Position numbers and translations under genes: made by a program. Positions 14,501 to 52,111 of a stretch of 53,071 bases of DNA are shown piece after piece (within the stretch, counting starts at the first letter, position 1; each line of letters opens with the position of its first letter). The notes below the pieces were generated by a model. That model had not been told where the DNA came from. It saw only the letters and a list, made by a program, of their open reading frames with translations, and made no database searches. The stretch lies in the IMG/VR virus record IMGVR_UViG_3300032216_000356, positions 1 through 53,071 of that record; one strand, 5' to 3'. The DNA comes from a virus (Duplodnaviria; Caudoviricetes).

Positions 14501-14549
14501 AGCAAATATTGTAGATACAGTTAATATGTATAAAGAAATGGAAGACTAA
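8529..14549 (+). CDS. Large polyvalent (ejected) protein with zincin metallopeptidase domain and LPD38-like C-terminus
   Basis: 2006 aa. N-terminal Gly/Ala hydrophobic helices, central ITHETLH (about 11016) plus EFVAEAF zincin motif, and a C-terminal region with FNFVRD-like and IPWGFG motifs. Confidence 0.7.
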   Translation: MARYKVTGPDGKQYLINGPAGASKEQILGVLQEKLSTPIEEPKQTTTDVAPDATLGEDLKDLGISATQGILGLKEGVTGIADIPTFGMAGKGVAAAEKAIFGGTSQEAKEKLQQLKSAEAQQQEKEIAETKGFVPTAKAYLQRPGALAGVITESVPSMLGGAGIARGVIAGTAKKVAPLIAGAIGEGAITSGSIAESVRQKSEDGLLSPGQVGAATLAGVFTGGLGVFGGKVAQKLGIADIDTLLAGGASEAQKKGILKAAIEGVLSEGVLEELPQSLQEQAMQNLAEGRPWSEGISEAGASGMLAGMFMGGPASALAQIKTNKQIALDNFKPPVKTEEEEKKPATILTKEEPSGQESLASTILKRAKVNVEGAIDEQLKSRKSRKGIPISGGSTDGAAGITETDDGAGLVSSGINTQSTQAGAGTQPSTLTPEQLATDINKSGLEFKNPAQLRKYITSKATKVGLAQLELDNKGLVKDLFDQYKEQLKEKPLAERVLNLENQQELDQQQLDNLHPYLKTISPYAKEAPLNKENGIKSAAIEDAFDTIDTANIKAVKQALVNLARDKTTQALADRKANIDKLMQEQRITRTKATEIVGPAEDYTYSSLRPTEFMSKDELNVLIKENEGTRKLNNDRAAEAKAREDFINTLTEDERASLEQQKYDAINRELESNRQQVINEQLLKKQETQKKQVAAEVEEQTQEVAAKPIADVMPLTETEGQILGKGERIVNKAVNSALSNNKPFLDVLKDIAGGEFNKYFSYQTVADMLQQKISVLSKPKGMGVKGTQLPTIKYGTVEKGKPGKFDPATNTITIDPNNAKNLDMGRVITHETLHYMLDHIIDNPKNLSEGQKNSLKRLKELHKQVKDKLGNQFDIPNLKEFVAEAFTNSEFQKALASLRPAPGSKLYRTAADIVWKISKAIVGALGLRLNTVKPVILEETIDMVSSIITDKAYTLPTATMIGKKVSYAPKQAGQPKAVVDPKQRKKDLTVHEYHKPSTTEVVKKTFVGEPARDKLITKFQNNRYAIKKWQKDLQKAGLISFAGDGFTNINDHITLAFGEANFRQKEYLDPHIQALQGALNDFAKSTNMSIGEALGTLHAYSEALHEPERRHIKFLKHVPLSTKKNIKVGNKVYSAADERAAILEAISSNEDLSDTDVTSMRNYLEWLVSNYKDAAGQGSYTGPNALIEQSADYNVAGGLNSQDVAAMLDEYNNDPYKEQVDNILNLLKPIQDASIELNKQGNYWGNGANNIKRFYNWEHYVPLKGRPNSKMPNNIDGLELQDKRLSNELKDGVMPMEGRTTDATNPIVQVMIDSALSAARAGRAGLTQSIKNAIDKKLLDGKVVAHYTSQEIYKGLDEKGEQLMKQRSNILHYNKDGSLDILHIADPHILESIRRTYQTGHPVLDLVNSFTSGLGQLHTRYNPSFPILNFVRDTLTNAFVMAVDINPMEAFKYLGAVSSTVVNGGLFKANKVARLYGKGDIASLRTMAKSDKYVQDMLEFIEHGGLVSVVEGLSVKAQLNRLYKELNKSKVAMLKEQIDPIFDAWTYTFELAARAGAYHVVKSNALANGKSMEEAIQMATVYAKQLANFEEVGEWGKGLGAMFMFFRPSATGAVRAFESIGPMLRSWESVKANLPDTITKNPEALAKYEENWRKQSRAATGVTMALMGAGVTIYMMSAGLSGDDDDDRNKMLNDDLSRWTRFARFDIGTGDNGEERVIQIPWGFGMGAFAAAGAQIAGATMSPSNSMASALGNLINIGLDSFLPLPISRINPTDNFPAFAMDSLTPSAVRPFLEYTMNKNSFGQEIYNNRKSRYGDAYTGGDNVPDMYKDASRMLFNATDGGIDWTPNTMYFFANNYIDGVTRLAQDGYGLGLTVTGQKSFDPKKDLVILDSFLSNKSNVDAREFAKTEQKVTEIEKILNTFKSSDPERYVDYMIDHPYDAAMVEVYNKLTSGDLKKLREQANVIRRFPDLTPKERADFLEENKRMQNMIKANIVDTVNMYKEMED

Positions 14550-14764
14550 GCTATAAGCCAAACTCTAACACCTAAGTGGTTTTCTTTAGTAGTAATATAA
14601 GCTCTAACTTTTACTTTAGCCCTCTTAGCTCCGCGCTCTACTGCATATAACATCTCAGCAGTATTAAGTGTAGGAATAAAAAAGCTTTCTCCGATTCGCA
14701 TATAATCAAAGGGAAATAACCATTCAGGTTCACGTAGCTGACTCAACTTCCATACCTTTCGCAC
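14546..14764 (-). CDS. Small conserved phage protein (possible DNA-binding)
   Basis: FPFDYMRIGESFFIP...GVRVW pattern. Last gene of the minus block, overlapping the convergent gene. Confidence 0.55.
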   Translation of the reverse strand: MRKVWKLSQLREPEWLFPFDYMRIGESFFIPTLNTAEMLYAVERGAKRAKVKVRAYITTKENHLGVRVWLIA

Positions 14765-23231: not shown

Positions 23232-23721
23232 AATTAGTCCTTATGTCTATTAATAAATCTTCAAATGATAATTGATGTCTCTCTTTAGCAAACTCAATAC
23301 TGACTAGATATCGGGTAGCTTCAAAATTCATTACTGCATGTTCTGTCTGTGTATTAAATAAGTAATAGGTGGTAGGTTTATATACAAGTTCTTTTATTTT
23401 AAAAACTTGGTCATAATTTTCGTTGTCTTTAAAAACACATACACTTCTCATATTAGGCGTAAGTAACATATTAATCCCAACACCTCGTCTAGTATCCGTA
23501 TGCCAATCATAACAAGTATATGGGTCTAGTTTAAGAATACCTCCAACGAAATCGTATCGTTGTTTTAGCCATACAAAGAATTCGTCTTGGAATAATATTT
23601 CAGGTGGGATTAGCTTAGCTTTAAAATTAAAATAGTCTAACCATTCATCTGAATTATGTGCAACATCGAGTAACTTACTTGTAATACTAGATTTATTTAA
23701 TAGCTCATAGTAAGGTTTCAC
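23224..23721 (-). CDS. Putative cupin/2OG-Fe(II) oxygenase-like protein
   Basis: WHTD (HxD) plus downstream FNTQTEHAVMN..R pattern. Confidence 0.55.
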   Translation of the reverse strand: MKPYYELLNKSSITSKLLDVAHNSDEWLDYFNFKAKLIPPEILFQDEFFVWLKQRYDFVGGILKLDPYTCYDWHTDTRRGVGINMLLTPNMRSVCVFKDNENYDQVFKIKELVYKPTTYYLFNTQTEHAVMNFEATRYLVSIEFAKERHQLSFEDLLIDIRTNYE

Positions 23722-25589
23722 TAACAGTCTCCATAACTTTTACCATGCTTAGCCTCACACGCTACAGGCAGTTCTTCCGCCCAAGCAGGAGCAGTCGACA
23801 TAATATCAGTAATATATTTTGTAGCCTCATCAATCTCTTGACTAGGGATTACGCAAACAACCGCATCATGTACAGTCAGCACAGGTTTATACTTATCATT
23901 AATCTTAATCATTTGTTCGCCTACTACAATACGAGCAAGGGCTTGAACAACATTTTCAACTACTGAGCCACCCCATAAAGAGATATACCCTTTTCTAGAT
24001 TTATATACAAATTTATCTTTACCCTCAACTTTTTCTTTCTTTAGCTCTGGGTAATGAATATATAATCCATTAGGTAGTTTAATCCCTTCTTTAGTAACGA
24101 GCAAGCATTTATGTTTACCTAAGTAATAAGGTTTCATTTCTTCACCCCAATTAGCCATGTCTGCTAATGCTCTATCACAGTCTGCCCATAGTTTAATAAC
24201 CTTGTCATTAATACGTCTGTATACTTTAACTAAGTTTTGACAATCTTCATCAGGCAAGTCAGCTCCAGGAGGTTGTGTCTTTAGAGTATGTTGTAGTTTA
24301 GACCACCCTGTGCCATAACCTAAACCTAACGTACAAGTTTTACCAACAAATCTTTCTACTGGATCAGATTTAGTGATAGTTCTACCATATACATTTGATG
24401 CAAACTCACAGTAAACATCTCGTTCATCTTTATATAATTGCACAATATCGTCTTGACCAGCTAGCCATACAAGTATCCGAGCTTCAATCTGAGATGAGTC
24501 ACAGTTAATAACTTTATGACCTGACGGAGCTTCAATCGCATTCTTTAATGCTTTCTTTTTCTTATCACGACTTGGTAAGTTTTGGAAGTTAACCTTATCA
24601 CTACCTGCCCAACGCCCTGTATGAGCACCATAATATTTAAGCGGGATAGGAAGTTTAGTCTTATTCCTCGCGCCAATATCCAAGAATCTTTTAATACGTG
24701 ATTCCTCAATCGTTGACTTAGTGCCTAGACGAACAGCACATAACTCTTGAATAAATGGGTCTTGATGCTCTGTTAATTCAATAAACCCTGTATCGTTCTT
24801 AGCCAATGCAAATGTTTCTTTGCCTGTCGTTGGAGAAATTTTCATAGGAACAGGGATATTTAATTCAGTTAAAAGCTCTGCGAATTGTTTATTAGACGCT
24901 AACTTTTTACGGACACATTCCTCGTCTTCACAATTTAGTTTATTCATCAACGCGCCTAGTACCTCTTTCTTTTCCGCTTCGACTTCTTCTAGTCTTGCAG
25001 TTAAAAGGGCATCATCAAGGACAAGGCTTGGTTGTGTATACATTCGAAGGGTAATATCAATTAGCTTTAACTCATTAGTAGGAAAGTCTTGTGATAATAC
25101 ATTATATAATTTATAGGTAAGTTCTACGTCATTCTTACAATATTCACCATATTGTTTTAAATCCTCATGATTAAAGTCTTCTAAGCGTTTACCTTTGGCA
25201 TCTACAACTTCTGTACCTTTTCTACCTAAGTTATAACGTTCCACAAGAGATGCAAGAGAGCCACCAACATCCACACCGTGCTTAGCGCGAGCCATGCCGA
25301 GAGTGTCCAAATAAATAGCAGGAATAATATTGAACACAAACGATAGAATAGCTCCATCAAATTGTGTGTTGTGACATAGCAGGATAGCTTCTCCCCAATT
25401 AATTCGGTCAAGCTCTGCTTTAATATGATTATGTGTGCCTGTAACCCATCGAGTTTCTTGATCGTCAACTTTAATACCCACGCCAATAACTTGGAAGCGT
25501 TCATCGCGTATGTATTCCTCTGTGGTTAGGTTTGATAGACTAAAACCCTGTTCATAAAAGGTTTCAAAGTCGAGTGTGATTAGATTCAT
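23721..25589 (-). CDS. polA: Family A DNA polymerase with 3'-5' exonuclease domain
   Basis: Exo motifs DFET and HN..FD. Polymerase motifs TGRW, NFQNLP, A DSSQIEAR, B R..GKTCTLGLGYG and C VHD. Confidence 0.92.
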   Translation of the reverse strand: MNLITLDFETFYEQGFSLSNLTTEEYIRDERFQVIGVGIKVDDQETRWVTGTHNHIKAELDRINWGEAILLCHNTQFDGAILSFVFNIIPAIYLDTLGMARAKHGVDVGGSLASLVERYNLGRKGTEVVDAKGKRLEDFNHEDLKQYGEYCKNDVELTYKLYNVLSQDFPTNELKLIDITLRMYTQPSLVLDDALLTARLEEVEAEKKEVLGALMNKLNCEDEECVRKKLASNKQFAELLTELNIPVPMKISPTTGKETFALAKNDTGFIELTEHQDPFIQELCAVRLGTKSTIEESRIKRFLDIGARNKTKLPIPLKYYGAHTGRWAGSDKVNFQNLPSRDKKKKALKNAIEAPSGHKVINCDSSQIEARILVWLAGQDDIVQLYKDERDVYCEFASNVYGRTITKSDPVERFVGKTCTLGLGYGTGWSKLQHTLKTQPPGADLPDEDCQNLVKVYRRINDKVIKLWADCDRALADMANWGEEMKPYYLGKHKCLLVTKEGIKLPNGLYIHYPELKKEKVEGKDKFVYKSRKGYISLWGGSVVENVVQALARIVVGEQMIKINDKYKPVLTVHDAVVCVIPSQEIDEATKYITDIMSTAPAWAEELPVACEAKHGKSYGDC

Positions 25590-37986: not shown

Positions 37987-38541
37987 ATGAAAAGTGCTAA
38001 CATGACAAATATGCAAATCATAGATAACTTCCTACCTAGACATCAATGGCTAAGTATATATTCATCGTTAGATAGTGATGATTTTCCTTGGTACCTAAAT
38101 AAAGATACTTCGTATGACGGCGGAGATAATTACAGACAGACTATACATACGTTTTATAAAAACTACCAAGTGAATTCAAGTTGGTTTAATTTAATCGAAC
38201 CACTCATAGTGCAATTTGAAAATAAGACATCCCACAGCATACAAAACCTTATTAGGATAAAATCAAACTTATTATTTAATAGATTAATAGATGAAGAGAC
38301 TAAACAAAAAGTAATTCATCAAGACATGGTAAGCCCAAAACATATTAGCCTATTATATTATCTGCATGATTCTGATGGTGATACGATATTGTATCAAGAT
38401 GACAAAGAAACGGAGGCTAGGAGAGTTATACCTAAGGCTAACCGAGCAGTTATATTTGATTCAAGAATTTGGCATACAGCAGAACTACCTATTAAAAACC
38501 AAACAAGGCAAGTGGTTAACTGTATATTTGAGGTTAAATAG
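37987..38541 (+). CDS. 2OG-Fe(II) oxygenase
   Basis: IIDNFL, FPW, HQD, DGDT, PKANRAVIFD..WH and R.VVN motifs. Confidence 0.8.
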   Translation: MKSANMTNMQIIDNFLPRHQWLSIYSSLDSDDFPWYLNKDTSYDGGDNYRQTIHTFYKNYQVNSSWFNLIEPLIVQFENKTSHSIQNLIRIKSNLLFNRLIDEETKQKVIHQDMVSPKHISLLYYLHDSDGDTILYQDDKETEARRVIPKANRAVIFDSRIWHTAELPIKNQTRQVVNCIFEVK

Positions 38542-39687: not shown

Positions 39688-40251
39688 ATGTATAAAGATG
39701 CAAAGCTAAAAGATTTTATAAAAGTGTACGATATTATCCCTCAAAAAGACGCTGAAAAAATTCTTAAAGAAGTAAAAAATATACCGTACGAGAGACATAA
39801 CTTCTATTCAGAAAGAACCAGAACTTATAAACAACATGAGATTGAGCCTATGAGATCAGGCGAGACAATACCTTCACATGAGATGCTTATGGATTATATG
39901 TGGCAAGCCGCTGAACAATATGCAGTTAAAGATTTAGCTTCAGATTTTTGGAACGGGTGGAATGGGTTTTCAAGACCTAAATATAATAAGTATATAGAAG
40001 GTGAAGAAATGGCATTTCATTGTGATCATATCCATGATTTATTTGATGGGATTATAAGGGGTATTCCAGTTCTTAGTATGATTGCATCATTTAATGATGA
40101 TTATGAAGGCGGAGAATTAGTAATCAATGGTGAGTCTATTAAATTAAAACAAGGACAGATTATTATATTTCCTTCTGTATTTTTATTTCCTCATAAAGTT
40201 GCTACTGTAACTAAAGGTGAACGATATACTGCTGTTTGCTGGACTTGGTGA
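39688..40251 (+). CDS. 2OG-Fe(II) oxygenase (prolyl-hydroxylase-like)
   Basis: HCD, NDDYEGGE and FPS..LFPHKV..VTKGERY motifs. Confidence 0.88.
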   Translation: MYKDAKLKDFIKVYDIIPQKDAEKILKEVKNIPYERHNFYSERTRTYKQHEIEPMRSGETIPSHEMLMDYMWQAAEQYAVKDLASDFWNGWNGFSRPKYNKYIEGEEMAFHCDHIHDLFDGIIRGIPVLSMIASFNDDYEGGELVINGESIKLKQGQIIIFPSVFLFPHKVATVTKGERYTAVCWTW

Positions 40252-41825
40252 TGTCAGAGAAAAAAGAAATAACACCTGAAGAACAAAAGAAAGAACAAGA
40301 GAAACGAATACTATCACTTATCACTTTCTTAGTAGCACATAAAAAACATTTAGATGAGGAAGAAGCTGCATTAGTTGATTCGTTGGCGGGAGCTACGGAT
40401 GGTAAAATTATCCAAGATGTTGGTAGTACATCATTTTTAGAATTTATACATCACGTATATCCTGGATATATGGTAGGAGCGCATCATAAAAAACTTGCTA
40501 ATATATTTGAAGACATTGCCGCCGGCAAAAAGAAAAGAGTTATTGTTAATATTGCGCCACGACATGGGAAGTCTGAACTTATCTCATATCTTGCACCTGC
40601 TTGGTTTTTGGGAAAGTTTCCTCATAAGAAAATTATTATGGCATCTCATACCGCTGATCTTGCTGTTAATTTTGGTCGTCGGGTACGTAATTTGGTTGGA
40701 AGTGATCCTTATAAAGATATTTTTCCAGCTGTAGAATTACAAGCAGATAGTAAATCAGCATCACGATGGGGAACAAATTATAATGGTGAATACTTTGCAA
40801 TTGGTGTGGGTGGTGCCCTCGCTGGTCGCGGGGCTGATCTTTTTATCATTGATGATCCACATTCAGAACAAGATGCTAAACTTGGACGAGCTGATGTTTT
40901 TCTCCCTGCTTGGGAGTGGTTTCAGTCTGGTCCAATTCAACGTCTTATGCCGGGCGGTGCGATTATTGTTGTGATGACAAGGTGGTCAAAGCTTGATCTG
41001 ACGGGGCAAATTGTAAACCAAATGGTTAAGAATGATGAAGTAGATCAATGGGAAGTCGTTGAATTTCCTGCTATTATTCAAGATAAAGAAGGTAGTGAAA
41101 GCCCTCTTTGGCCTGAGTTTTGGAGTTTAGAAGAATTACAGGCAAAAAAAGCAGCACTTGATGTACGGTATTGGAATGCTCAGTATTTACAAAATCCAGT
41201 ATCAGAAGAAGGTGCATTAATTAAAAGAGAGTGGTGGAAGATATGGGAAGAAGAGAATCCACCGAGTTGTGAATTTACTATTATGTCTTTAGACGCTGCG
41301 CAGGAAGCTAATACTCGCGCTGATTATAATGCACTAACTGTTTGGGGTGTCTTTTTTAACGAAGAAACCAATAACTATAATATAATACTATTAAATTCAA
41401 TTAAGAAACGATTAGAGTTTCCAGAGCTCAAAACACTTTGTATCGAAGAGTATAAAGATTGGGAACCCGATGCATTCTTAGTAGAAAAGAAATCTAACGG
41501 TGCGGCGCTCTATCAAGAGTTTAGACGCATGGGCATTCCTGTCGGTGAATTTACACCAGGTAAAGGGCAAGACAAAATAAGTCGAGTAAATGCCGTGTCA
41601 GATTTGTTTAGAAGTGGTATAGTATGGGCTCCCGATAGACGTTGGGCTCATGAAGTAATTGAAGAATGTAATGATTTTCCGAGTGGTGCTAATGACGACC
41701 TTGTAGATAGTACAACACTTGCATTGATGAGATTTAGACAAGGCGGATTTATTAGGTTACCATCCGACGAACCTGAAGATATAGTTGGATTTAAAAGCTC
41801 AAGAAATAGATTATACGCATTATAA
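40251..41825 (+). CDS. terL: Terminase large subunit
   Basis: APRHGKSE Walker A, IIDDP Walker B, MTRW, YLQNP and nuclease DDLVDS. Likely start 40251 (TGATG overlap). Confidence 0.93.
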   Translation: MSEKKEITPEEQKKEQEKRILSLITFLVAHKKHLDEEEAALVDSLAGATDGKIIQDVGSTSFLEFIHHVYPGYMVGAHHKKLANIFEDIAAGKKKRVIVNIAPRHGKSELISYLAPAWFLGKFPHKKIIMASHTADLAVNFGRRVRNLVGSDPYKDIFPAVELQADSKSASRWGTNYNGEYFAIGVGGALAGRGADLFIIDDPHSEQDAKLGRADVFLPAWEWFQSGPIQRLMPGGAIIVVMTRWSKLDLTGQIVNQMVKNDEVDQWEVVEFPAIIQDKEGSESPLWPEFWSLEELQAKKAALDVRYWNAQYLQNPVSEEGALIKREWWKIWEEENPPSCEFTIMSLDAAQEANTRADYNALTVWGVFFNEETNNYNIILLNSIKKRLEFPELKTLCIEEYKDWEPDAFLVEKKSNGAALYQEFRRMGIPVGEFTPGKGQDKISRVNAVSDLFRSGIVWAPDRRWAHEVIEECNDFPSGANDDLVDSTTLALMRFRQGGFIRLPSDEPEDIVGFKSSRNRLYAL

Positions 41826-41836
41826 GGGAATAAATT

Positions 41837-44371
41837 ATGGCAAATAATATAGATAAAAGTTTAGCACAAGCACCTCAAGGCCTAGAAGAATTAGCAGCAG
41901 GTACACCGGATTTAAGTATTGAAATTGAAAATCCCGAATCAGTCACACTAGACGATGGCAGCATGGAGATTACAATTACTCCTGGTAAAGAAGGTGATGA
42001 TAAATTTAATGCTAACTTAGCAGAAGAATTAAATGAAGGACAACTTACAGAATTAGCAGGAGATTTACTTGGCGAATTTGATGCCGATATATCTTCTCGT
42101 AAAGATTGGTTAACAACTTATGTAGATGGTCTAGAATTACTAGGACTTAAAGTTGAAGACCGCACAGAACCGTGGCCCGGTGCTTGCAATGTGTACCACC
42201 CCTTAATGACAGAAGCGCTGGTTAAGTTCCAAGCTGAAACTATGATGGAGACATTCCCCGCAGCTGGCCCAGTTAAAACACAAATCATCGGTAAACAAAC
42301 TCCAAAAAAAGAAGAAGCCGCACTTCGTGTCCAAGAAGACATGAACTATCAATTAACAGATGTAATGCAAGAATATCGCCCTGAACATGAACGCATGCTA
42401 TGGGGTCTAGGTTTAGCAGGTAATGCATTTAAAAAAGTTTATTATGATCCAAGTTTAGAACGCCAAGTTGCAATGTATGTAACTGCAGAAGATATGGTAG
42501 TACCATATGGCGCATCTAATCTAGAAACATGTGAACGTGTAACTCATGTTATGCGTAAAACAAAAAATGAATTGCATAAACTACAAGTTGCAGGTTTTTA
42601 TCGAGATGTAGATTTAGGTGAACCATATGCAGATGTAGATGAAGCTGAGAAAAAGATTGCTGAGAAACTTGGTTTCAATCCATCAGAAGATGATCGCTAC
42701 AAGATCCTTGAAATGCACGTCAACCTTGATTTAGAAAATGGTGATAGTGAAGATAACATTGCATTGCCTTATGTTATAACATTAGAAAAAGGTACAGGCA
42801 CAATCTTAGCAATTCGTCGTAATTGGAATCCAGATGATGAACTAAAAGCTAAACGTCAACATTTTGTACATTATGGATATATTCCAGGTTTTGGTTTTTA
42901 CTGTTTTGGTTTAATCCATTTAATTGGAGCATTTGCTAAATCAGGTACTATGATTCTTCGTCAATTAGTTGATGCTGGTACATTATCTAATTTACCTGGC
43001 GGGCTCAAGTCTCGTGGGCTACGCATCAAAGGTGACGATACCCCAATTGCTCCAGGTGAATTCCGTGATGTAGACGTACCATCAGGCGCTATCCGCGATA
43101 ACATTTTAATGTTACCTTATAAAGAGCCTTCACAAGTATTACAAGGTTTGATGACTCAAATCATCGAAGAAGGTCGGGCATTTGCAAATGCAGAAGGTCT
43201 TAAAGTATCTGATATGTCTGCAAACGCTCCAGTAGGTACAACACTTGCAATCCTAGAAAGAACATTAAAAGTAACATCAGCTATTCAAGCCCGTATTTAT
43301 TATGCAATGAAACAAGAGTTTAAACTACTTAAAGGCATAATCCGTGATTACACACCTTCAGAGTATAACTATGACCCAGAAGTAGGTGATCGCCGTGCTA
43401 AACAAGCTGATTACGATGATGTAGATGTGATTCCTGTAAGTGATCCTAATGCCGCAACTATGTCTCAAAAGGTTGTACAGTATCAAGCTGTTATGCAAAT
43501 GGCACAAGCTAATCCACAAATCTATGATCAAGTAGAACTTAATAAACAAATGCTAGAAGTATTAGGTATTAAAAATATTGGAAAACTTATTCCATCAGCT
43601 GAAGATCAATCTCCAAAAGATCCTGTATCAGAAAATATGAATATTATTAATGGTAAACCTGTTAAAGCATTTATCTATCAAGATCATCAAGCACATATTG
43701 CAGTTCATATGGCAGCTATGCAAGATCCTAAAATACAGCAAATGGTTGGCCAAAATCCTCAAGCAGGTACTATTCAATCTGCAGCCATGGCACATATTAA
43801 TGAGCACGTTGCTTTTGAATATAGAAAACAACTTGAAGAACAACTAGGTGTTCCATTACCTAAACCTGATGAAACATTACCGCAAGATGTAGAATTTGAA
43901 TTATCTAAAGTAATGGCCGAAGCTGCTAAAAAACTTAATGCTAAATCAACAGCAGAAGCTCAACAAGAACAAGCTCAACAACAATCTCAAGATCCTATTT
44001 TACAAATGCAACAACAAGAACTACAACTTAAAGCTCAAGACTTGCAAATTAAACAGCAAAAAACTATGGCTGATATTCAAGCAGAACAACAACGTCTTGA
44101 ACTTGATAAGATGCGTATTGAATCTCAAGAACGTATTGCCGGAGCTCAACTTGGTGCTGATGTAGTAATGAGTGATAAAGAATTAAAAGCTAAACAACTT
44201 ATGGAAGGTACTCGTTTAGGTATTGATGCAGTTAAGAGTAAAGAACAACTTAATCATCAAAAAGAACAAAGTAATAGACAACATGAGATACAATTTAAAC
44301 AACAGGAACTACAATCTAAACAACAGGAACTACAATCTAAACAACAGGAACCACAACAAACACAGGAGTAA
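41837..44371 (+). CDS. Portal protein with Q-rich coiled-coil barrel
   Basis: 844 aa following TerL, P22-like size, with AFKKVYYD, GFYCFGL and PVGTT motifs and a long Gln-rich C-terminal coil. Confidence 0.85.
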   Translation: MANNIDKSLAQAPQGLEELAAGTPDLSIEIENPESVTLDDGSMEITITPGKEGDDKFNANLAEELNEGQLTELAGDLLGEFDADISSRKDWLTTYVDGLELLGLKVEDRTEPWPGACNVYHPLMTEALVKFQAETMMETFPAAGPVKTQIIGKQTPKKEEAALRVQEDMNYQLTDVMQEYRPEHERMLWGLGLAGNAFKKVYYDPSLERQVAMYVTAEDMVVPYGASNLETCERVTHVMRKTKNELHKLQVAGFYRDVDLGEPYADVDEAEKKIAEKLGFNPSEDDRYKILEMHVNLDLENGDSEDNIALPYVITLEKGTGTILAIRRNWNPDDELKAKRQHFVHYGYIPGFGFYCFGLIHLIGAFAKSGTMILRQLVDAGTLSNLPGGLKSRGLRIKGDDTPIAPGEFRDVDVPSGAIRDNILMLPYKEPSQVLQGLMTQIIEEGRAFANAEGLKVSDMSANAPVGTTLAILERTLKVTSAIQARIYYAMKQEFKLLKGIIRDYTPSEYNYDPEVGDRRAKQADYDDVDVIPVSDPNAATMSQKVVQYQAVMQMAQANPQIYDQVELNKQMLEVLGIKNIGKLIPSAEDQSPKDPVSENMNIINGKPVKAFIYQDHQAHIAVHMAAMQDPKIQQMVGQNPQAGTIQSAAMAHINEHVAFEYRKQLEEQLGVPLPKPDETLPQDVEFELSKVMAEAAKKLNAKSTAEAQQEQAQQQSQDPILQMQQQELQLKAQDLQIKQQKTMADIQAEQQRLELDKMRIESQERIAGAQLGADVVMSDKELKAKQLMEGTRLGIDAVKSKEQLNHQKEQSNRQHEIQFKQQELQSKQQELQSKQQEPQQTQE
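44297..44351 (+). repeat. 21-bp tandem repeat (about 2.6 copies) encoding KQQELQS
   Basis: AAACAACAGGAACTACAATCT x2 plus a partial copy. Confidence 0.85.
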
Positions 44372-44374
44372 TAT

Positions 44375-44569
44375 ATGGACTCAACGCTAGAACTATTATT
44401 GTCTCGAATAGAGGATCAGCGCAAAACAGTATTATTAAATTTAGGGGATGGAGCAGCAAAAGATTTTGCTTCGTATACTAATATGACCGGATATATACGA
44501 GGTTTATCCGTAGCAGAAAGTTTGATTAGAGACCTCGCACAAAAAATGGAGACATATGACGATGAGTGA
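44375..44569 (+). CDS. Conserved small head-module protein
   Basis: Between portal and GroES, with Y....GYIRGL pattern and GGAG RBS. Confidence 0.6.
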   Translation: MDSTLELLLSRIEDQRKTVLLNLGDGAAKDFASYTNMTGYIRGLSVAESLIRDLAQKMETYDDE

Positions 44570-45008
44570 TCAAATACTCACAATGAATAAAAACTTGGTA
44601 GATGCAAATGGTCGACCAATTATTGTTCCAAAGATTGAAGATGTAGAAGCAGAAGATATTCCAATTGATGAACGAGGATTACAATTACCAGAACCAAAAG
44701 GATATAAAATTTTATGTGCAATCCCAGAAGCATCGGATACATATGAAAGTGGTATTGTTAAAGCAGGAAATGTTAAGCATACTGAAGAATTAGCTACTGT
44801 AGTTTTATTTGTAGTTAAACTTGGAGATATGGCTTATTCAGATAAAGAAAGATTTCCTACAGGTTCATGGTGTAAAGAAGGTGATTTTATTTTAACACGT
44901 GCATATGCAGGTACTAGATTTAAAATTCACGGAAGAGAGTTTAGGATTATAAATGACGATACTGTAGAAGGTGTTGTTCAAGATCCTAGGGGATATACTA
45001 GAGCATGA
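44556..45008 (+). CDS. groES: Co-chaperonin GroES-like protein
   Basis: PKGYKIL, T.SGIV, VVKLG, CKEGDFI, YAGTRF and FRIINDD motifs. Confidence 0.85.
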   Translation: MTMSDQILTMNKNLVDANGRPIIVPKIEDVEAEDIPIDERGLQLPEPKGYKILCAIPEASDTYESGIVKAGNVKHTEELATVVLFVVKLGDMAYSDKERFPTGSWCKEGDFILTRAYAGTRFKIHGREFRIINDDTVEGVVQDPRGYTRA

Positions 45009-47637: not shown

Positions 47638-48546
47638 ATGGCTATTTCACGTGCACAGCTCCTAAAAGAGCTCTTACCAGGACTAAACGCATTATTTGGT
47701 TTAGAATATAAACGTTACGGCGAAGAACATAAAGAAATCTACGAAACAGAGACTTCAGAACGTTCATTCGAAGAAGAAACAAAACTTTCAGGTTTCTCAG
47801 CAGCACCAGTCAAAAACGAAGGCACATCTATCGCTTATGACAATGCTCAAGAAGCTTGGACAGCTCGATACAATCATCAAACTATCGCTCTTGGCTTCAG
47901 CTTAACTGAAGAAGCTGTAGAAGATAACTTGTATGATACATTATCAGCACGTTACACAAAGGCTTTAGCTCGCGCTATGGCTTACACAAAACAAGTTAAG
48001 GCTGCTGCAGTATTAAATAATGGCTTTAGTACATCATATACTGGTGGCGATGGCGTTTCATTATTTAACACAGCTCACCCTCTTGTTTCTGGTAACACAA
48101 ACAGCAACACTCAATCAACTGCAACAGATTTGAACGAAACTTCATTGGAAAATGCTGTTATTCAAATCGCTGCATGGACTGATGAGCGTGGTCTCTTGAT
48201 TGCTGCTCAACCACGTAAACTTATTGTTCCACCAGCATTGCAATTCGTTGCAACTCGCTTGTTAGAAACTGAGTTACGTGTTGGTACAGCTGACAATGAT
48301 ATCAATGCAATTAAGAATAACGGTTCTATCCCAGAAGGTTACACAGTTAACCACTTCTTGACAGATACAAACGGTTATTTCTTAACAACTGATGTTCCTA
48401 ACGGCATGAAGCACTTTGAACGTACTCCATTGTCTACATCTATGGATGGTGACTTTGATACAGGTAACGTTCGTTACAAGGCTCGTGAACGTTATTCATT
48501 TGGTTGGTCAGATCCTCTTGGTATGTGGGGTTCACCAGGTGCTTAA
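47638..48546 (+). CDS. Major capsid protein
   Basis: MAISRAQLLKELLPGLNALFG...DFDTGNVRYKARERYSFGWSD family signature, followed by a terminator. Confidence 0.9.
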   Translation: MAISRAQLLKELLPGLNALFGLEYKRYGEEHKEIYETETSERSFEEETKLSGFSAAPVKNEGTSIAYDNAQEAWTARYNHQTIALGFSLTEEAVEDNLYDTLSARYTKALARAMAYTKQVKAAAVLNNGFSTSYTGGDGVSLFNTAHPLVSGNTNSNTQSTATDLNETSLENAVIQIAAWTDERGLLIAAQPRKLIVPPALQFVATRLLETELRVGTADNDINAIKNNGSIPEGYTVNHFLTDTNGYFLTTDVPNGMKHFERTPLSTSMDGDFDTGNVRYKARERYSFGWSDPLGMWGSPGA

Positions 48547-48570
48547 TTAGCAACTGGCTATGTACTATTA

Positions 48571-48605
48571 AAGGGGCTTACTTAAAACGTAGGCCCTTTT
48601 TCTTT
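48571..48605 (+). terminator. Rho-independent terminator after MCP
   Basis: GGGCTTAC...GTAGGCCC stem followed by TTTTTCTTT. Confidence 0.75.
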
Positions 48606-48700
48606 ACCTGTTATTCATGGTTTTCTTGATGTTTGTTTTCATTCAATTTGAAATAATGCAGTTGTAGAGTGAAAACTCTATATAACTTAAGGAGAATATT

Positions 48701-48778
48701 ATGAAAGCATGGACTAAACCAGCAGCAACAGAAATGAGATTTGGCTTTGAGGTGACGATGTACGTAATGAACAAGTAA
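48701..48778 (+). CDS. pqqA: Pyrroloquinoline quinone precursor peptide PqqA (25 aa; not in ORF track)
   Basis: ATG AAA GCA TGG...AAG TAA translates to MKAWTKPAATEMRFGFEVTMYVMNK, with the W-x-x-P..R-x-G-F-E-V-T-x-Y PqqA signature and intact E-x-x-x-Y. AAGGAG RBS 6 nt upstream. Confidence 0.96.
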   Translation: MKAWTKPAATEMRFGFEVTMYVMNK

Positions 48779-48794
48779 TAATTCTGTTCTAATT

Positions 48795-48822
48795 AGGGGA
48801 CTAAATGTCCCCTTTTTCTTTT
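48795..48822 (+). terminator. Rho-independent terminator after pqqA
   Basis: AGGGGAC-TAAAT-GTCCCCT followed by TTTTCTTTT. Confidence 0.88.
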
Positions 48823-48870
48823 ATATAATGTGCTATAATACTTGCAAATACTACCAATTCAGGTATTATT

Positions 48871-48935
48871 TGGGAATCCGGGTTACCCGGTTTATTAGAC
48901 TGTCCCGGCAGACGCATATAAGACTAATAAATCTA
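48871..48935 (+). ncRNA. Candidate structured leader RNA
   Basis: CCGGG-TTA-CCCGG hairpin and TTTATTAG/CTAATAAA stem, downstream of promoter-like TGCTATAAT and TTGCAA-16-TATTAT. Confidence 0.35.
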
Positions 48936-48958
48936 ACTTTATATGAAGGAAAATCATT

Positions 48959-49444
48959 ATGTCAAGAACCACGTTCTCAGGCCCAGTTAAATCTGGTACT
49001 AATCGCTATGCTCCATACCAAAATGTAGGCACTACAGTAATAACTCAATCAGTTCCATTTACTTTTGATGCTACATTAACTCAAAACGCAACATTTTATA
49101 TTCCAGCGGGATCTAAGATTCTTAATATGCAAGTTGATGTTATTACAGCATATGACTCAGCTACATCAGCTACTTTAACTGTTGGTAAAACTTCAGGCGG
49201 TACGCAATATGCTTCAGGCGTAAATGCTAAAACATCAGGTCGTACAACACCTACATTTACAACTACTCAGTTAACAAATTTTCAATCAACTCCAATTGAT
49301 GTAGCAGCTTCAACTACAGGATCAGATGCTGTTTCAGCAATTGTAGTTACTATTACTTCAGTGGGTCAACCAACAGCGGGTACAGGTTTCTTTTCAATGC
49401 AATATATCCAATCTGACGACCGCGCAACATTTGGCACACAGTAA
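48959..49444 (+). CDS. Virion structural protein (head fibre/decoration-like)
   Basis: MSRTTFSGPVKSG start, Thr-rich beta protein, with AAGGA RBS. Confidence 0.6.
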   Translation: MSRTTFSGPVKSGTNRYAPYQNVGTTVITQSVPFTFDATLTQNATFYIPAGSKILNMQVDVITAYDSATSATLTVGKTSGGTQYASGVNAKTSGRTTPTFTTTQLTNFQSTPIDVAASTTGSDAVSAIVVTITSVGQPTAGTGFFSMQYIQSDDRATFGTQ

Positions 49445-49489: not shown

Positions 49490-52111
49490 ATGTCAGGATG
49501 GACGTTAGTCGACGGAAATAATAATAAGTCTTTGCCATGGACAGGAACGAATAATACTGCGTATATTACTCCTGGTACCCAAACACAAGACCCAGTGGGA
49601 AAGTTCCGTGTTTCCCAACCACAAGCTTTAATTGATACAGACTTTGAATATGGTACTCAACCTACCAAATGGGAGTCAATTTCATTACAAAATAATAGAC
49701 AAAGTGTTTATTACATACCTCAACAACCTTTAAACGTAACAAGCATTACAGGTACAACAACACTTACAATTACTGTGGCTGCTGCTATTACTATTGCTGC
49801 TGGTACACCAATTTATATTCAAAATGCTACTGATCCAAATGCTAACGGATGGTGGTATACAGATACAGGCGTTACAACAGGTACAACATTTACAATTATT
49901 CCTACTTCAGCATGTGCTGCTGGTGAAAAATTTAGCGCTACTTCAACTTATGTTTACTCTGGATATTTTTATTCTAATTGTGGTATCGCAGTTGGTTCTA
50001 ATGCATTTGTAACATCAACTAACACAGTTACAGTAACAACAAGTAACCCACATGGTTTATCTGTAAATAGTTTAATTTATGTTAAAGGTTTAGGCGGGTC
50101 TCCCACTGCTGTTATGGGTGCATTTATAGTTGCTACTGTACCTACAGCTAATACGTTTACATATACATCAACAGGCGCAGCGGGTACTCCAACTAATGCC
50201 GCAGGCAATACATTTTTATATGCACGGCCAGCGGGTTATGTAGAGCCAAGAGCTTTTGATGGCGGCGTAGCATTCTCAGCAGGTGCAGCAGTACCAAATC
50301 AACAACTTATTAGACAAACACGTAGATATTTCCGTTATCAATCTGGTAAAGGTATTCAATTTTCTACAGGTTCATCATTAAAACCGACATTATTTGTTAC
50401 TAGTGTTACATCAGCAACATCTACAGTTACAGTAAATACTCGTTATGCTCATAGCTTGGCAGTGGGTACAGTAATTCAAGTATCTGGTGTTGATCAAGCC
50501 GCATTTAATGGACAATGGACTATTGCTAGTGTACCTACACCAAATTCACTAACATATTCTGTATCTCCTACAGTTTTAGGTACAGTAACAGCTACTGGAG
50601 CACAAATTAGGGTTAATCCTATAAGTTGGTATGGTTCTAGTAATCGATTAGGTTTCTTTGACCAACAAAATGGACTATTTTTTGAATATGACGGTCAAAC
50701 TTTATATGCTGTATGGCGTAGTAGTACAACACAAATTAATGGTAGCGTTTCTGTAACTCAAGGTTCAAGCGCAGTAACAGGTACTGGAACAGCATTTAGT
50801 AATCAGTTATCACCTGGTGATTTTATTGTAATTCGCGGCCAATCATATAAAGTAATTACTATTGCTAGTGATACATCAATGTTTATTAGCCCTGAATATC
50901 GAGGATCTACAATTGCAAATGCTGTTGTTTCTAAAACAATTGACACAAAAGTACCTCAATCAGCATGGTCTGATCCATTAGATGGTACAGGTTCTTCAGG
51001 TTACACACTTGATTTAACTAAAATGCAAATGTTTTATATTGATTATTCATGGTATGGTGCTGGATTTATTAGATGGGGTTTTAGAACATCTAAAGGCCAA
51101 ATTACTTATGTTTACCAACAAACTAATAATAACCAACGTTTTGAAGCATATATGCGTTCAGGTAACATGGCAGCACATTATGAATCAAGCGGATTAGCTC
51201 CAATCACAACATTAACTGCAACTTTATCTTCTGCAACTACAACTTCAATGTCTGTAGGAAGTACAGCTTTATTACCATCTGCTGGTACAGTTAAAGTAAG
51301 TACTGCTACATCAACCGGTGCAATTGAACTTATTTCATATACTGGTAAAACAGCTACTACATTAACAGGTTTAACTAGAGGTGTAACGGGGGGTTCAGCA
51401 GCAACAACCTTTACTTATAGTGCAGCAGCTCCTATTAGTGTTGAATATGCTCTTAATGATACAGCAGCAGCGTTATCTCATTGGGGTTCATCTGTAATTA
51501 TGGATGGCCAGTTTAATGACGATAAATCACTTATTTTTAACTATGGTACTACGACACAGTTACAATTAGCTTCATCAACTACTCAAGTAACTCCAATTAT
51601 AGCAATACGTATTGCACCTTCAGTTGATAATGGTATTACGGGTTTATTAGGGGCTAAAGAAATTATTAACCGCATGCAATTACAATTAGTTGAGTTAGGT
51701 GTTCAAACTGATCTTCCTGTTTTAATTACTTTAATTTTAAATGGTTATGTTACAGGCGGTACATGGACAGCATTTACATCTCCTATATCAGGTGGTGGTA
51801 CAAGTAGTGCATATACTTCTTCATTAGCTCAAGTAGCTGTAAACAGTTTAAATACAGGTACATGCACGGGGGGTGAATCAGTAGCGGCAGCGTTTACAAA
51901 CACAAATGGACAAACAACACTAGACTTATCTCAAGTACGTGATCTTGGTAACTCAATCTTAGGAGGCGGTACAAGTAATACATTACCAACTTCTTATGCT
52001 GGTGTTTACCCAGATGGTCCTGATATTCTATATGTATGTGCCACTAATGTTGTAGGATCTGCAACTCCAAAAATCTTAGCTCGACTAAGTTGGAAAGAAG
52101 CTCAAGCATAA
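49490..52111 (+). CDS. Large Thr/Ser-rich virion protein (fibre/spike-like)
   Basis: 873 aa with repeated beta-barrel units (TVTVTT..PHGL / TVTVNT..AHSL, VATVPT.NTFTY) and a lectin-like IDYSWYGAG core. Confidence 0.65.
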   Translation: MSGWTLVDGNNNKSLPWTGTNNTAYITPGTQTQDPVGKFRVSQPQALIDTDFEYGTQPTKWESISLQNNRQSVYYIPQQPLNVTSITGTTTLTITVAAAITIAAGTPIYIQNATDPNANGWWYTDTGVTTGTTFTIIPTSACAAGEKFSATSTYVYSGYFYSNCGIAVGSNAFVTSTNTVTVTTSNPHGLSVNSLIYVKGLGGSPTAVMGAFIVATVPTANTFTYTSTGAAGTPTNAAGNTFLYARPAGYVEPRAFDGGVAFSAGAAVPNQQLIRQTRRYFRYQSGKGIQFSTGSSLKPTLFVTSVTSATSTVTVNTRYAHSLAVGTVIQVSGVDQAAFNGQWTIASVPTPNSLTYSVSPTVLGTVTATGAQIRVNPISWYGSSNRLGFFDQQNGLFFEYDGQTLYAVWRSSTTQINGSVSVTQGSSAVTGTGTAFSNQLSPGDFIVIRGQSYKVITIASDTSMFISPEYRGSTIANAVVSKTIDTKVPQSAWSDPLDGTGSSGYTLDLTKMQMFYIDYSWYGAGFIRWGFRTSKGQITYVYQQTNNNQRFEAYMRSGNMAAHYESSGLAPITTLTATLSSATTTSMSVGSTALLPSAGTVKVSTATSTGAIELISYTGKTATTLTGLTRGVTGGSAATTFTYSAAAPISVEYALNDTAAALSHWGSSVIMDGQFNDDKSLIFNYGTTTQLQLASSTTQVTPIIAIRIAPSVDNGITGLLGAKEIINRMQLQLVELGVQTDLPVLITLILNGYVTGGTWTAFTSPISGGGTSSAYTSSLAQVAVNSLNTGTCTGGESVAAAFTNTNGQTTLDLSQVRDLGNSILGGGTSNTLPTSYAGVYPDGPDILYVCATNVVGSATPKILARLSWKEAQA

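What the first reader, a model, noticed from the sequence alone, without database searches (positions are those of the whole stretch)
48701..48778. Phage-encoded PqqA: a PQQ cofactor precursor peptide hidden behind the major capsid gene
Seen: a 25-codon ORF below the ORF-track cut-off, MKAWTKPAATEMRFGFEVTMYVMNK, with a strong AAGGAG RBS and intact E-V-T-M-Y. Established: PqqA is the ribosomally made substrate whose Glu and Tyr (ExxxY) are cross-linked by PqqE/PqqD and processed by PqqB/C and proteases to PQQ, the cofactor of MxaFI/XoxF methanol dehydrogenases. One peptide is consumed per PQQ, and methylotrophs often carry several pqqA copies. No other pqq gene is visible in the window. Inference: the phage supplies only the stoichiometric precursor and uses host enzymes to raise PQQ and methanol-oxidation flux during infection, making a minimal RiPP-precursor auxiliary metabolic gene of 78 bp. 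Such genes are easily missed by annotation. I cannot confirm from here whether phage pqqA has been reported before.
Basis: partly seen in the sequence, partly recalled or inferred. Interest (0 to 1): 0.95.

Follow-up and report, generated by a model that had tools for sequence, protein, structure and literature searches.

The report
Phage-carried PQQ precursor peptide gene

Summary
ORF 48701-48778 (+) encodes MKAWTKPAATEMRFGFEVTMYVMNK behind AAGGAG. It matches Pfam PqqA (42.6 bits, cut-off 21.1) and TIGR02107 (40 bits, cut-off 20) over their full length.

The window is a whole virus record with terminase, portal, capsid, DNA polymerase and primase/helicase genes. It has no pqqB-E, methanol dehydrogenase repeats or integrase.

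pqqA is a roughly 250-nt cassette between the capsid terminator and the next gene's leader. Only 4 of 69 close capsid relatives carry it. Carriers have lower GC (0.40 vs 0.49) and cluster on the capsid tree.

The peptide core is identical to Methylophilaceae PqqA. Intact pqqA occurs in at least 120 viral contigs from six or more phage backgrounds. None has pqqB-E nearby, and dN/dS is 0.18. It also occurs, uncalled on its coding strand, in 9 cultured methylophage records.

Best reading: an auxiliary gene that feeds host PqqB-E. The effect on PQQ is inferred, not shown.

Phage pqqA was already reported in 2020 (PMC7678222), so this is a new member of a known kind. Interest is moderate.

The parts
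47638..48546 (+). Major capsid protein gene (302 aa), directly upstream of the cassette
   Evidence: Pfam Phage_capsid_4 and Mu-like gpT above cut-off; PHROG major head protein; at least 600 viral contigs encode relatives, and the best 80 are 85-93% identical
48570..48600 (+). Hairpin followed by a U-rich tract after the capsid gene (terminator-like); 5' boundary of the cassette
   Evidence: Fold -16.6 kcal/mol, z -3.05, 0 of 200 shuffles as good. The consensus scan did not list it. Equivalent hairpins follow the capsid gene in relatives with and without pqqA.
48601..48688 (+). Upstream region of the cassette: extended -10-like TGAAATAAT (48649-48657) and a small hairpin GTAGAG-TGAAAA-CTCTAT (48664-48681); promoter function not shown
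   Evidence: Read. The block is shared with L034 and with L071 and L091, which lie in other phage backgrounds. The hairpin motif was found in 4 of 117 viral copies, one of them (L048) a chance match by eye, and in 0 of 122 bacterial copies. The sigma-70 scan found no promoter here.
48689..48694 (+). Shine-Dalgarno AAGGAG, 6 nt before the ATG
   Evidence: An SD-like motif is present in 109 of 117 viral copies.
48701..48778 (+). pqqA, 25 codons; cross-link residues E17 and Y21
   Evidence: The core from W4 to K25 is identical to PqqA in 13 bacterial loci, 12 of them Methylophilaceae.
48795..48822 (+). Intrinsic-terminator-like hairpin AGGGGAC-TAAAT-GTCCCCT plus T-run; 3' end of the cassette
   Evidence: -13.1 kcal/mol, z -3.5. 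A terminator-like site lies within 90 nt after pqqA in 56 of 118 viral copies, against 4 of 118 shuffles.
48824..48869 (+). Promoter-like boxes for the next gene: TATAAT 48824-48829, TGCTATAAT 48831-48839, and TTGCAA-16-TATTAT 48842-48869
   Evidence: 9 of 12 matches. These are consensus matches only.
48871..48958 (+). Conserved pseudoknotted RNA leader of the next structural gene. It is not part of pqqA but marks the 3' edge of the insertion slot.
   Evidence: see Noticed in passing
48959..49444 (+). 161-aa protein of unknown family. In relatives without pqqA its homologue starts 132-251 nt after the capsid gene.
   Evidence: no Pfam family above cut-off; no PHROG

Best explanation
This is a functional pqqA carried by a tailed phage that most likely infects Methylophilaceae. 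It is packaged as a small 'moron': an upstream region, a Shine-Dalgarno, a 25-codon ORF and its own terminator. The unit is inserted into a variable slot between the capsid gene's terminator and the leader of the next structural gene. During infection the phage makes the PqqA peptide. The host's own PqqD/PqqE cross-link E17 to Y21, and host PqqB, PqqC and a peptidase finish PQQ. One peptide is destroyed for each PQQ made, and Methylophilaceae keep 3-12 pqqA copies against one set of enzyme genes. Precursor supply is therefore the step a phage can raise, or keep going after host transcription falls, with only 78 bp. The likely benefit is sustained PQQ-dependent methanol dehydrogenase activity, and so energy, while progeny are made. 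Shown here: family membership, viral context, absence of the enzymes, cassette anatomy, purifying selection, repeated acquisition by unrelated phages, and identity with the host-type peptide. Inferred: expression timing, processing by host enzymes, and any effect on PQQ level or burst size.
For: Family: Pfam 42.6 bits against 21.1 and TIGR02107 40 bits against 20, both full-length.

Viral context: the window is a whole virus record. It has terminase, portal, capsid, virion structural protein, DNA polymerase A, DUF927 primase/helicase, SNF2 helicase and PD-(D/E)XK nuclease genes.

No pqqB-E, PQQ-repeat dehydrogenase or integrase in the window.

Cassette: relatives L250 and L252 go from the capsid terminator almost directly to the leader. 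The window and L249 have the extra pqqA unit. The distance from the capsid stop to the leader core is 67-127 nt in 20 of 30 loci, and 335 and 492 nt in the two pqqA carriers.

Selection: the 120 viral copies plus the window give 108 distinct nucleotide sequences. On the 14 codons not fixed by my search pattern, pS is 0.52, pN is 0.15 and dN/dS is 0.18. All 120 of 120 viral loci have an intact ORF. An SD-like motif is present in 109 of 117.

Not host contamination: 0 of 120 viral loci have PqqB-E nearby, against 46, 38, 31 and 29 of 120 bacterial loci. In 17 contigs of this capsid lineage pqqA follows the capsid gene on the same strand.

Repeated acquisition: Louvain grouping gives 15 communities, six with 11-23 members, labelled by the window, MW202481, P19250A/MEP301, Melnitz, Venkman and one unnamed group. 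The only DNA the MEP402 region shares with P19250A, MEP301, Venkman and Melnitz is pqqA.

Host link: the window core equals 13 bacterial loci, 12 of them Methylophilaceae. 49 of 120 viral cores are identical to a bacterial core, all Methylophilaceae or unlabelled. Carriers have GC 0.40 against 0.49 for non-carriers.

Dosage logic: 3-12 pqqA copies against a single pqqBCDEFG in Methylophilaceae (PMC4109929, passages). A 1.3-Mb Ca. Methylopumilus genome has 3 copies.
Against: Only 4 of 69 close capsid relatives with at least 400 nt downstream carry pqqA, so the gene is dispensable for this phage type.

No expression evidence. The laid RNA-library contigs are short. Only one run (X7) covers the ORF, and host pqqA mRNA or other phages could explain that.

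No sigma-70 promoter was called in front of the ORF. The upstream block is shared by only 3 other genuine loci.

The dN/dS and 'all intact' figures come from loci found through an intact FGFEVTMY motif, so decayed copies could not be seen.

Nothing here shows that PQQ turns over fast enough during a latent period for precursor supply to matter.

The record is 83% complete, so a pqq enzyme gene in the missing part cannot be excluded.
Confidence: 0.7

Rival explanations
1. Neutral passenger: a scrap of host DNA picked up by illegitimate recombination into a permissive intergenic slot, carried for a while without benefit.
For: Only 4 of 69 close capsid relatives have it. The same slot holds unrelated ORFs in 7 of 30 loci, so it tolerates insertions. 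On the capsid tree the label needs 6 changes.
Against: dN/dS is 0.18 with synonymous sites near saturation, and there are 108 distinct nucleotide versions. The ORF is intact in 120 of 120 viral loci and in 8 of 8 phage-database loci examined. It occurs in six or more unrelated phage backgrounds. Similarity to host DNA is limited to the ORF plus about 20 nt on either side, so it is not a raw host fragment.
Confidence: 0.1
2. DNA-level role: the pqqA sequence serves as homology for integration into, or recombination with, one of the host's several dispersed pqqA copies. It would act like an attP core, and the peptide would be irrelevant.
For: Hosts carry 3-12 dispersed copies, and 3 in a streamlined genome. 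In Venkman, MEP301, MW202481 and P19250A the gene lies beside recombination genes (YqaJ, ERF or recombinase).
Against: Nucleotides are not conserved but codons are: pS is 0.52-0.69 against pN 0.15. The best host match to the window core is 94% and most are 86-89%. The window has no integrase. Start codon, SD and stop are kept.
Confidence: 0.05
3. The peptide is made but not to raise PQQ. It could be a decoy that ties up host PqqD/PqqE, or a substrate for another modification.
For: Nothing direct. The window variant has a 3-residue N-terminal difference (MKAW against MW) that is shared with L080.
Against: The core W4-K25 is identical to the native Methylophilaceae peptide, which argues for a competent substrate and against an inhibitor. 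The window has no PqqD match and no PqqE-like match. Host copies also vary at the N-terminus: MKW, MIMW and MTMW.
Confidence: 0.07
4. Assembly chimera or host contamination of the viral contig.
For: Two 'Acinetobacter phage MD-2021a' records that matched the peptide are of this kind. They carry pqqBCDE with ppk, fur and entB.
Against: The window has phage genes on both sides. In 17 independent contigs of this lineage pqqA follows the capsid gene on the same strand. Cultured, sequenced phage isolates carry it. 0 of 120 viral loci have PqqB-E nearby.
Confidence: 0.01

Closest known systems
PqqA of Methylophilaceae (Pfam PF08042 / TIGR02107), including the orphan extra copies typical of that family
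   Same: Same length class, full-length HMM match and E-x-x-x-Y. The 22-residue core is identical to that in Methylophilus, Methylotenera and Methylobacillus loci. Like many host copies it stands alone with its own SD and terminator: 96 of 122 host copies have a terminator-like site.
   Different: It is encoded in a phage structural module, not in a cell, and no pqqBCDE exists anywhere in the record. It starts MKAW where the common forms start MW.
Viral PqqA of Lake Baikal population VP_266 (Coutinho et al. 2020, PMC7678222; passages and section 9 read)
   Same: A phage-borne pqqA in a virus assigned to Methylophilaceae, proposed as an auxiliary metabolic gene for methanol oxidation.
   Different: That virus is described as T4-like and also carries a methanol dehydrogenase, with radical SAM and SAM-cycle genes in the companion population. 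The window is a 53-kb phage whose capsid gene resembles those of pelagiphages HTVC027P and HTVC023P, and it carries pqqA alone. That paper states P19250A has none of these genes, but an intact unannotated pqqA is there.
Classical phage morons and small single-gene AMGs such as cyanophage psbA or hli (recalled; not tested here)
   Same: A host-derived gene with its own terminator, inserted between two genes that are adjacent in relatives and present in only some members of the lineage.
   Different: The product is neither an enzyme nor a structural subunit. It is a consumable ribosomal precursor of a cofactor, and at 78 bp it lies below most gene-caller limits.

Membership tests
PqqA (PF08042 / TIGR02107) | Scores above the curated cut-off of the family models over their full length | tested here: met
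   42.6 bits against 21.1, profile positions 1-19 of 19; 40 bits against 20, positions 1-21 of 21; 40.7 bits in the six-frame search
PqqA (PF08042 / TIGR02107) | Glu and Tyr separated by three residues (the cross-linked pair) in a peptide of about 20-40 residues | tested here: met
   E17-V-T-M-Y21 in a 25-residue ORF. That these two residues become PQQ is established knowledge, not tested here.
PqqA (PF08042 / TIGR02107) | Genomic company of pqqB, C, D and E | tested here: not met
   None in the window and none near the 120 viral copies. This is not disqualifying. Methylophilaceae keep 3-12 pqqA copies for one enzyme cluster, and 74 of 120 bacterial loci also showed no PqqB within the stored stretch.
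PqqA (PF08042 / TIGR02107) | Bound by PqqD, cross-linked by PqqE and converted to PQQ | not testable with these tools
   The peptide (25 aa) is below the 30-residue limit of the complex predictor. Biochemistry is needed.
Auxiliary metabolic gene of a phage | Lies inside a genuine viral genome with viral genes on both sides | tested here: met
   Capsid gene upstream; 161-aa protein and an 873-aa virion structural protein downstream; whole record is viral
Auxiliary metabolic gene of a phage | Host homologue with a defined metabolic role, kept under purifying selection in phages | tested here: met
   Identical core in Methylophilaceae; dN/dS 0.18 on 14 codons. Caveat: the copies were found through an intact motif.
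Auxiliary metabolic gene of a phage | Expressed during infection with a metabolic effect | tested here: inconclusive
   RNA-library contigs cover the ORF in 1 of 4 runs laid. They are short and not attributable to this phage.
Moron (autonomous insert in a phage late operon) | Inserted between genes that are adjacent in relatives | tested here: met
   20 of 30 relatives have 67-127 nt between the capsid stop and the leader core; the window has 349 nt
Moron (autonomous insert in a phage late operon) | Own terminator and own promoter | tested here: inconclusive
   Terminator present. Promoter: only an extended -10-like TGAAATAAT by eye, not called by the scan.

The most novel reading that the evidence does not exclude
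pqqA is a convergently acquired, near-universal signature of phages that infect Methylophilaceae and some other PQQ-dependent methylotrophs. Siphoviruses, podoviruses, T4-like myoviruses and this HTVC023P-like type have each captured the same 70-78-bp gene. That would mean supply of the precursor peptide, not of the enzymes, limits PQQ synthesis in infected cells. It would make pqqA one of the smallest auxiliary metabolic genes, a precursor-only RiPP gene in viruses, and a practical host-prediction marker that current annotation pipelines and PHROGs miss entirely.
Probability: 0.5. Interest if true: 0.65.

Novelty: new member of a known kind. Interest (0 to 1): 0.5.

Why it matters
First, it corrects the record. 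Of the named methylophage records my four searches of the phage collection returned, all 9 carry an intact pqqA: Venkman, P19250A, MEP301, MEP401, MEP402 and four Melnitz isolates. None has it called on its coding strand. The main texts of three of their papers do not mention it. The one paper that reports viral pqqA says P19250A lacks such genes.

Second, cultured phage-host pairs exist. The question of whether precursor supply limits PQQ synthesis, and so methanol oxidation, during infection is therefore directly testable.

Third, a 23-25-codon gene that is the only DNA shared among otherwise unrelated methylophages is a cheap host-prediction marker for viromes.

Fourth, it shows that sub-30-codon genes are a blind spot for AMG surveys: PHROGs has no family for it.

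Tried and rejected
I then used the pattern search with a degenerate back-translation of FGFEVTMY.

RNA evidence: 24 runs held 10-22% of the sampled words. I laid four (X1, X5, X6, X7). All are contigs, and most pieces are 90-95% alike and lie on the capsid gene. X5 and X6 show no cover beyond about 48550. X7 has depth over 48675-48796 and 48858-48979. X1 is probably DNA. No piece bridges capsid gene and pqqA. This says nothing about expression or habitat, and I draw no conclusion from it.

Single-linkage grouping of genomic contexts merged 98 loci into one component because the phages are mosaic. I replaced it with Louvain communities.

The upstream hairpin and extended -10 block looked like a cassette promoter. 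It is rare: 4 of 117 viral copies, one a chance match, and 0 of 122 bacterial copies. I do not claim it as general.

By eye the ORFs filling the same slot in other relatives looked like homing endonucleases. Pfam gave no family above cut-off for 6 of 6 tested, so I call them only unrelated ORFs.

Rfam: nothing at gathering score in the whole window, and only far-sub-threshold matches around the cassette.

I considered a complex prediction of PqqA with PqqD/PqqE but did not send it, because the peptide is under the 30-residue minimum. I did not use the search for homologous proteins, the search of protein representatives, structure prediction or the protein atlas; the family assignment did not need them.

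Denominator for cultured methylophages: the NCBI taxonomy lists 18 named taxa. Nine (HIM624-A, phiMB624-A, MEP431-434, Venkman EXVC038S, MG-MTP1, RSA-MFP1) were never returned by any search of the phage collection. I cannot tell whether they are absent from the collection or lack pqqA.

Literature. That phage pqqA is otherwise unreported rests on searches of the held library only. Supplementary tables were closed and may list the gene.

Full report
OBSERVATION. The + strand of the window holds ATG at 48701 and TAA at 48776-48778, followed by a second in-frame TAA. The ORF encodes MKAWTKPAATEMRFGFEVTMYVMNK. AAGGAG sits at 48689-48694, six bases before the start. The peptide matches Pfam PqqA at 42.6 bits (cut-off 21.1, E 5.5e-11, all 19 profile positions). 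It matches NCBIfam TIGR02107 at 40 bits (cut-off 20, all 21 positions). A six-frame search of the record finds the same place and no other. The gene upstream, 47638-48546, is a major capsid protein.

WHAT THE WINDOW IS. The window is a complete IMG/VR virus record of 53,071 bases, linear, with a CheckV completeness estimate of 83%. GC is about 0.37. It encodes the following:
- large terminase (40236-41825)
- portal (41837-44371)
- capsid (47638-48546)
- an 873-aa virion structural protein (49490-52111)
- family A DNA polymerase (23721-25589, minus strand)
- DUF927 primase/helicase (14730-17699, minus strand)
- SNF2 helicase
- PD-(D/E)XK nuclease
- two 2OG-Fe(II) oxygenases

At DNA level its capsid gene resembles those of Pelagibacter phages HTVC027P and HTVC023P, at 66% identity. 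The record has no tRNA and no tyrosine integrase. It has no PqqD and no PQQ-repeat dehydrogenase. tblastn with PqqB, C, D and E gave nothing better than E = 1.2. The phage therefore carries the precursor gene alone.

ANATOMY: A CASSETTE IN A VARIABLE SLOT. The capsid gene is followed by a strong hairpin with a U-rich tail at 48570-48600 (-16.6 kcal/mol, z -3.05). About 100 nt further on comes the Shine-Dalgarno and pqqA. After pqqA comes a clean terminator-like hairpin with a T-run at 48795-48822. TATAAT-type boxes follow at 48824-48869, then a conserved leader and the next gene at 48959.

I compared the window with its nearest relatives. L250 and L252 have capsid proteins 92% and 90% identical and no pqqA. 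They run from the capsid terminator through a short AT-rich stretch straight into the same leader. The window and L249 have the additional pqqA unit in between. In 30 relatives where the leader core could be located, the distance from the capsid stop to the core falls into classes:
- 67-127 nt in 20 loci
- 173 nt in one locus
- 335 and 492 nt in the two pqqA carriers (349 nt in the window)
- 743-1004 nt in seven loci, filled with unrelated ORFs that have no Pfam family above cut-off

pqqA is thus one of several alternative cargoes of an insertion hot spot behind the capsid gene, with the layout of a moron.

HOW CONSERVED IS IT IN THIS LINEAGE? This result cuts against a core function. I fetched viral contigs through the capsid protein rather than through pqqA. 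That returned at least 600 relatives, of which the best 80 (85-93% identical) were kept. Sixty-nine of these had at least 400 nt downstream of the capsid gene, and only 4 of the 69 carry pqqA. A loose six-frame search found no copy elsewhere in these loci.

Carriers and non-carriers differ in GC. Carriers average 0.401 (n = 15, range 0.373-0.441) and non-carriers 0.487 (n = 65, range 0.387-0.568). I built a capsid tree of 81 rows. I left out three loci that duplicate contigs already present, and partial capsids under 220 residues. On this tree the pqqA label needs 6 changes, against a mean of 14.8 in shuffles, and 0 of 500 shuffles were as low. One clade of 7 carriers has SH-aLRT 95, and the window groups with L080 and L249 at 91. 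Well-supported branches do not exclude a single origin. The simplest reading is that this widespread capsid lineage infects hosts of differing GC, and that pqqA marks the low-GC subset that infects methylotrophs. That reading is inference.

IS IT A WORKING GENE, AND WHOSE? All 120 hold one intact PqqA ORF. None has PqqB, C, D or E in the stored stretch, whereas 46, 38, 31 and 29 of 120 bacterial loci found with the same pattern do.

The 120 viral copies plus the window give 108 different nucleotide sequences. On the 14 codons not fixed by the pattern, pS is 0.52, pN is 0.15 and dN/dS is 0.18. On the 8 pattern codons pS is 0.69. Selection is on the peptide, not on the DNA. The caveat is that copies with a damaged core could not be found this way.

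An SD-like motif precedes 109 of 117 viral copies. A terminator-like site follows 56 of 118, against 4 of 118 shuffles. Similarity between the window cassette and host loci is confined to the ORF plus about 20 nt on either side.

The window's core (W4 to K25) is identical to the peptide in 13 bacterial loci. Twelve are Methylophilaceae: Methylophilus 5, Methylotenera 4, Methylobacillus 1 and no genus given 2. Forty-nine of the 120 viral cores equal a bacterial core, and every such core belongs to Methylophilaceae or unlabelled records. The best host nucleotide match to the window core is 94%, in a Methylotenera MAG locus.

HOW WIDESPREAD AMONG PHAGES? A tblastn of the peptide against 50,697 phage records found 12 records. 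Two 'Acinetobacter phage MD-2021a' contigs are bacterial DNA, with pqqBCDE beside ppk, fur and entB. The other ten are Venkman, P19250A, MEP301, MEP401, MEP402, four Melnitz isolates and a spring-water podovirus, MW202481.

I opened seven of these records (MEP401 and three Melnitz records were not opened). Each copy is an intact 23-24-codon ORF with an SD-like motif. None is called on its coding strand. In five the place is unannotated, and in Melnitz-1 and MW202481 a 'hypothetical protein' is called on the opposite strand. One search's feature column gives the same picture for all ten.

Grouping the 120 viral loci, six reference loci and the window by shared neighbouring ORFs gives 15 Louvain communities. 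Six of them have 11-23 members each. A 4.7-kb MEP402 region shares only the pqqA stretch with P19250A, MEP301, Venkman and Melnitz. The same tiny gene has therefore entered many unrelated phage genomes. Some viral peptides resemble the variants of Methylococcales, Methylophaga or other Burkholderiales rather than those of Methylophilaceae.

MECHANISM. Established knowledge, not tested here: PqqA is the ribosomal substrate from which PQQ is cut. PqqD presents it to the radical SAM enzyme PqqE, which links the Glu and the Tyr. PqqB, PqqC and a peptidase complete the cofactor. One peptide is consumed for each PQQ made.

Methylophilaceae carry 3-12 pqqA copies but a single pqqBCDEFG set (PMC4109929, passages). 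A 1.3-Mb Ca. Methylopumilus genome keeps three dispersed copies. That pattern indicates precursor dosage matters to these cells. A phage that adds a copy identical in core to the host's, placed in the late structural region, can keep the pathway supplied with 78 bp and no enzyme genes. I put this reading at 0.7. Its weakest points are the lack of expression data, the unknown turnover of PQQ during infection, and the gene's absence from most close capsid relatives.

RIVALS.
- Neutral passenger (0.1). It is contradicted by codon-level selection and repeated acquisition.
- DNA-level homology for integration (0.05). It is contradicted by synonymous saturation and by the absence of an integrase. 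However, several siphovirus carriers do place pqqA next to recombination genes.
- Decoy or alternative use of the peptide (0.07). It is contradicted by identity with the native substrate.
- Chimera (0.01). It is excluded by synteny in 17 independent contigs and by presence in cultured isolates.

COMPARISON WITH WHAT IS KNOWN. Membership of the PqqA family is met on score and motif. The usual company of pqqB-E is not met, as is also true of the orphan copies in the hosts.

Phage-borne pqqA is not new as a kind. Coutinho et al. 2020 (PMC7678222; passages and the whole of section 9 read) reported it in a T4-like Lake Baikal virus of Methylophilaceae, together with a viral methanol dehydrogenase, and proposed the same role. 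A 2026 paper lists pqqA among virus-encoded phosphorus-cycling genes (PMC13188868, passages).

What I did not find in print is its breadth, using searches of the held library. The Melnitz paper mentions PQQ only as a medium supplement. The main text of the MEP301 paper has no occurrence of PQQ or AMG terms. The MEP401/402 paper lists other AMGs but not pqqA. The Baikal paper states that P19250A encodes none of these AMGs, which the sequence contradicts. The Venkman and P19250A papers were not read.

VERDICT. Novelty: a new member of a known kind, namely a phage pqqA in a new phage background, as a minimal cassette. Added value: it is a widespread, convergently acquired and systematically unannotated gene. 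Interest 0.5.

SIDE FINDING. The leader of the gene after the cassette (48871-48958) is a conserved structured RNA. RNAalifold on 30 leaders gives 14 pairs, 10 of them with compensatory changes. For my 18-pair structure, 92.9% of cells pair, against 79.4% in shuffles. The covariation score is 0.476 against 0.209, with 0 of 500 shuffles as high. Slid controls pair at 28-47%. A third helix abutting the Shine-Dalgarno is kept at 6 bp or more in 30 of 30 leaders, with 12 different sequence pairs. Only 6.8% of shuffles reach 6 bp. This helix crosses the first, which makes a pseudoknot. The partner of the 5' CCGGG is unresolved. No Rfam family comes near its gathering score.

Noticed in passing
window 48871-48958 (+), and the same place in 29 related viral loci (alignment A1): A conserved, strongly covarying RNA leader with a pseudoknot lies directly upstream of the 161-aa structural gene. 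Helix A has 10 pairs, 9 of them with changes on both sides. A 3-pair hairpin CTG-TCCCGG-CAG flips to CAG/CTG in 14 sequences. Helix B abuts the Shine-Dalgarno and is kept in 30 of 30 leaders with 12 sequence variants. The core was found in 30 of 80 capsid-lineage loci, whether or not pqqA is present. No Rfam family matches. It looks like an undescribed translational control element of a phage late gene.
   Followed up: partly
between the capsid stop and the leader in L258, L266, L273, L278, L282, L312 and L317 (also L251): The slot that holds pqqA in the window holds 743-1004 nt of unrelated ORFs in 7 of 30 relatives. Some are on the opposite strand and Cys-rich. None of 6 tested reaches a Pfam cut-off. 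The site is an insertion hot spot.
   Followed up: partly
GenBank phage records KX815270 (P19250A), MT375522 (Venkman), MW452941 (MEP301), OP830906/7 (MEP401/402), MZ577095-98 (Melnitz), MW202481: All carry an intact pqqA that is either unannotated or overlaid by a 'hypothetical protein' called on the opposite strand. A published statement that P19250A lacks such AMGs is contradicted by the sequence.
   Followed up: yes
phage-collection records CAKLQF020000010 and CAKLQH020000055 ('Acinetobacter phage MD-2021a'); locus L008: These 'phage' records contain ordinary bacterial chromosome: pqqBCDE, ppk, fur and entB. They would give false positives in AMG surveys.
   Followed up: partly
window 37987-38541 and 39688-40251 (+): Two 2OG-Fe(II) oxygenase genes flank the start of the packaging module. 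An AMG of this type is also listed for OM43 phages in PMC10580990.
   Followed up: no
window 44556-45008 (+): A 150-aa protein in the head module, between the portal and the capsid gene, matches a PHROG annotated as co-chaperonin GroES (E 6.5e-9).
   Followed up: no
window 8529-14549 (+): A 2006-aa ORF is the largest in the record. I did not search it against any library.
   Followed up: no
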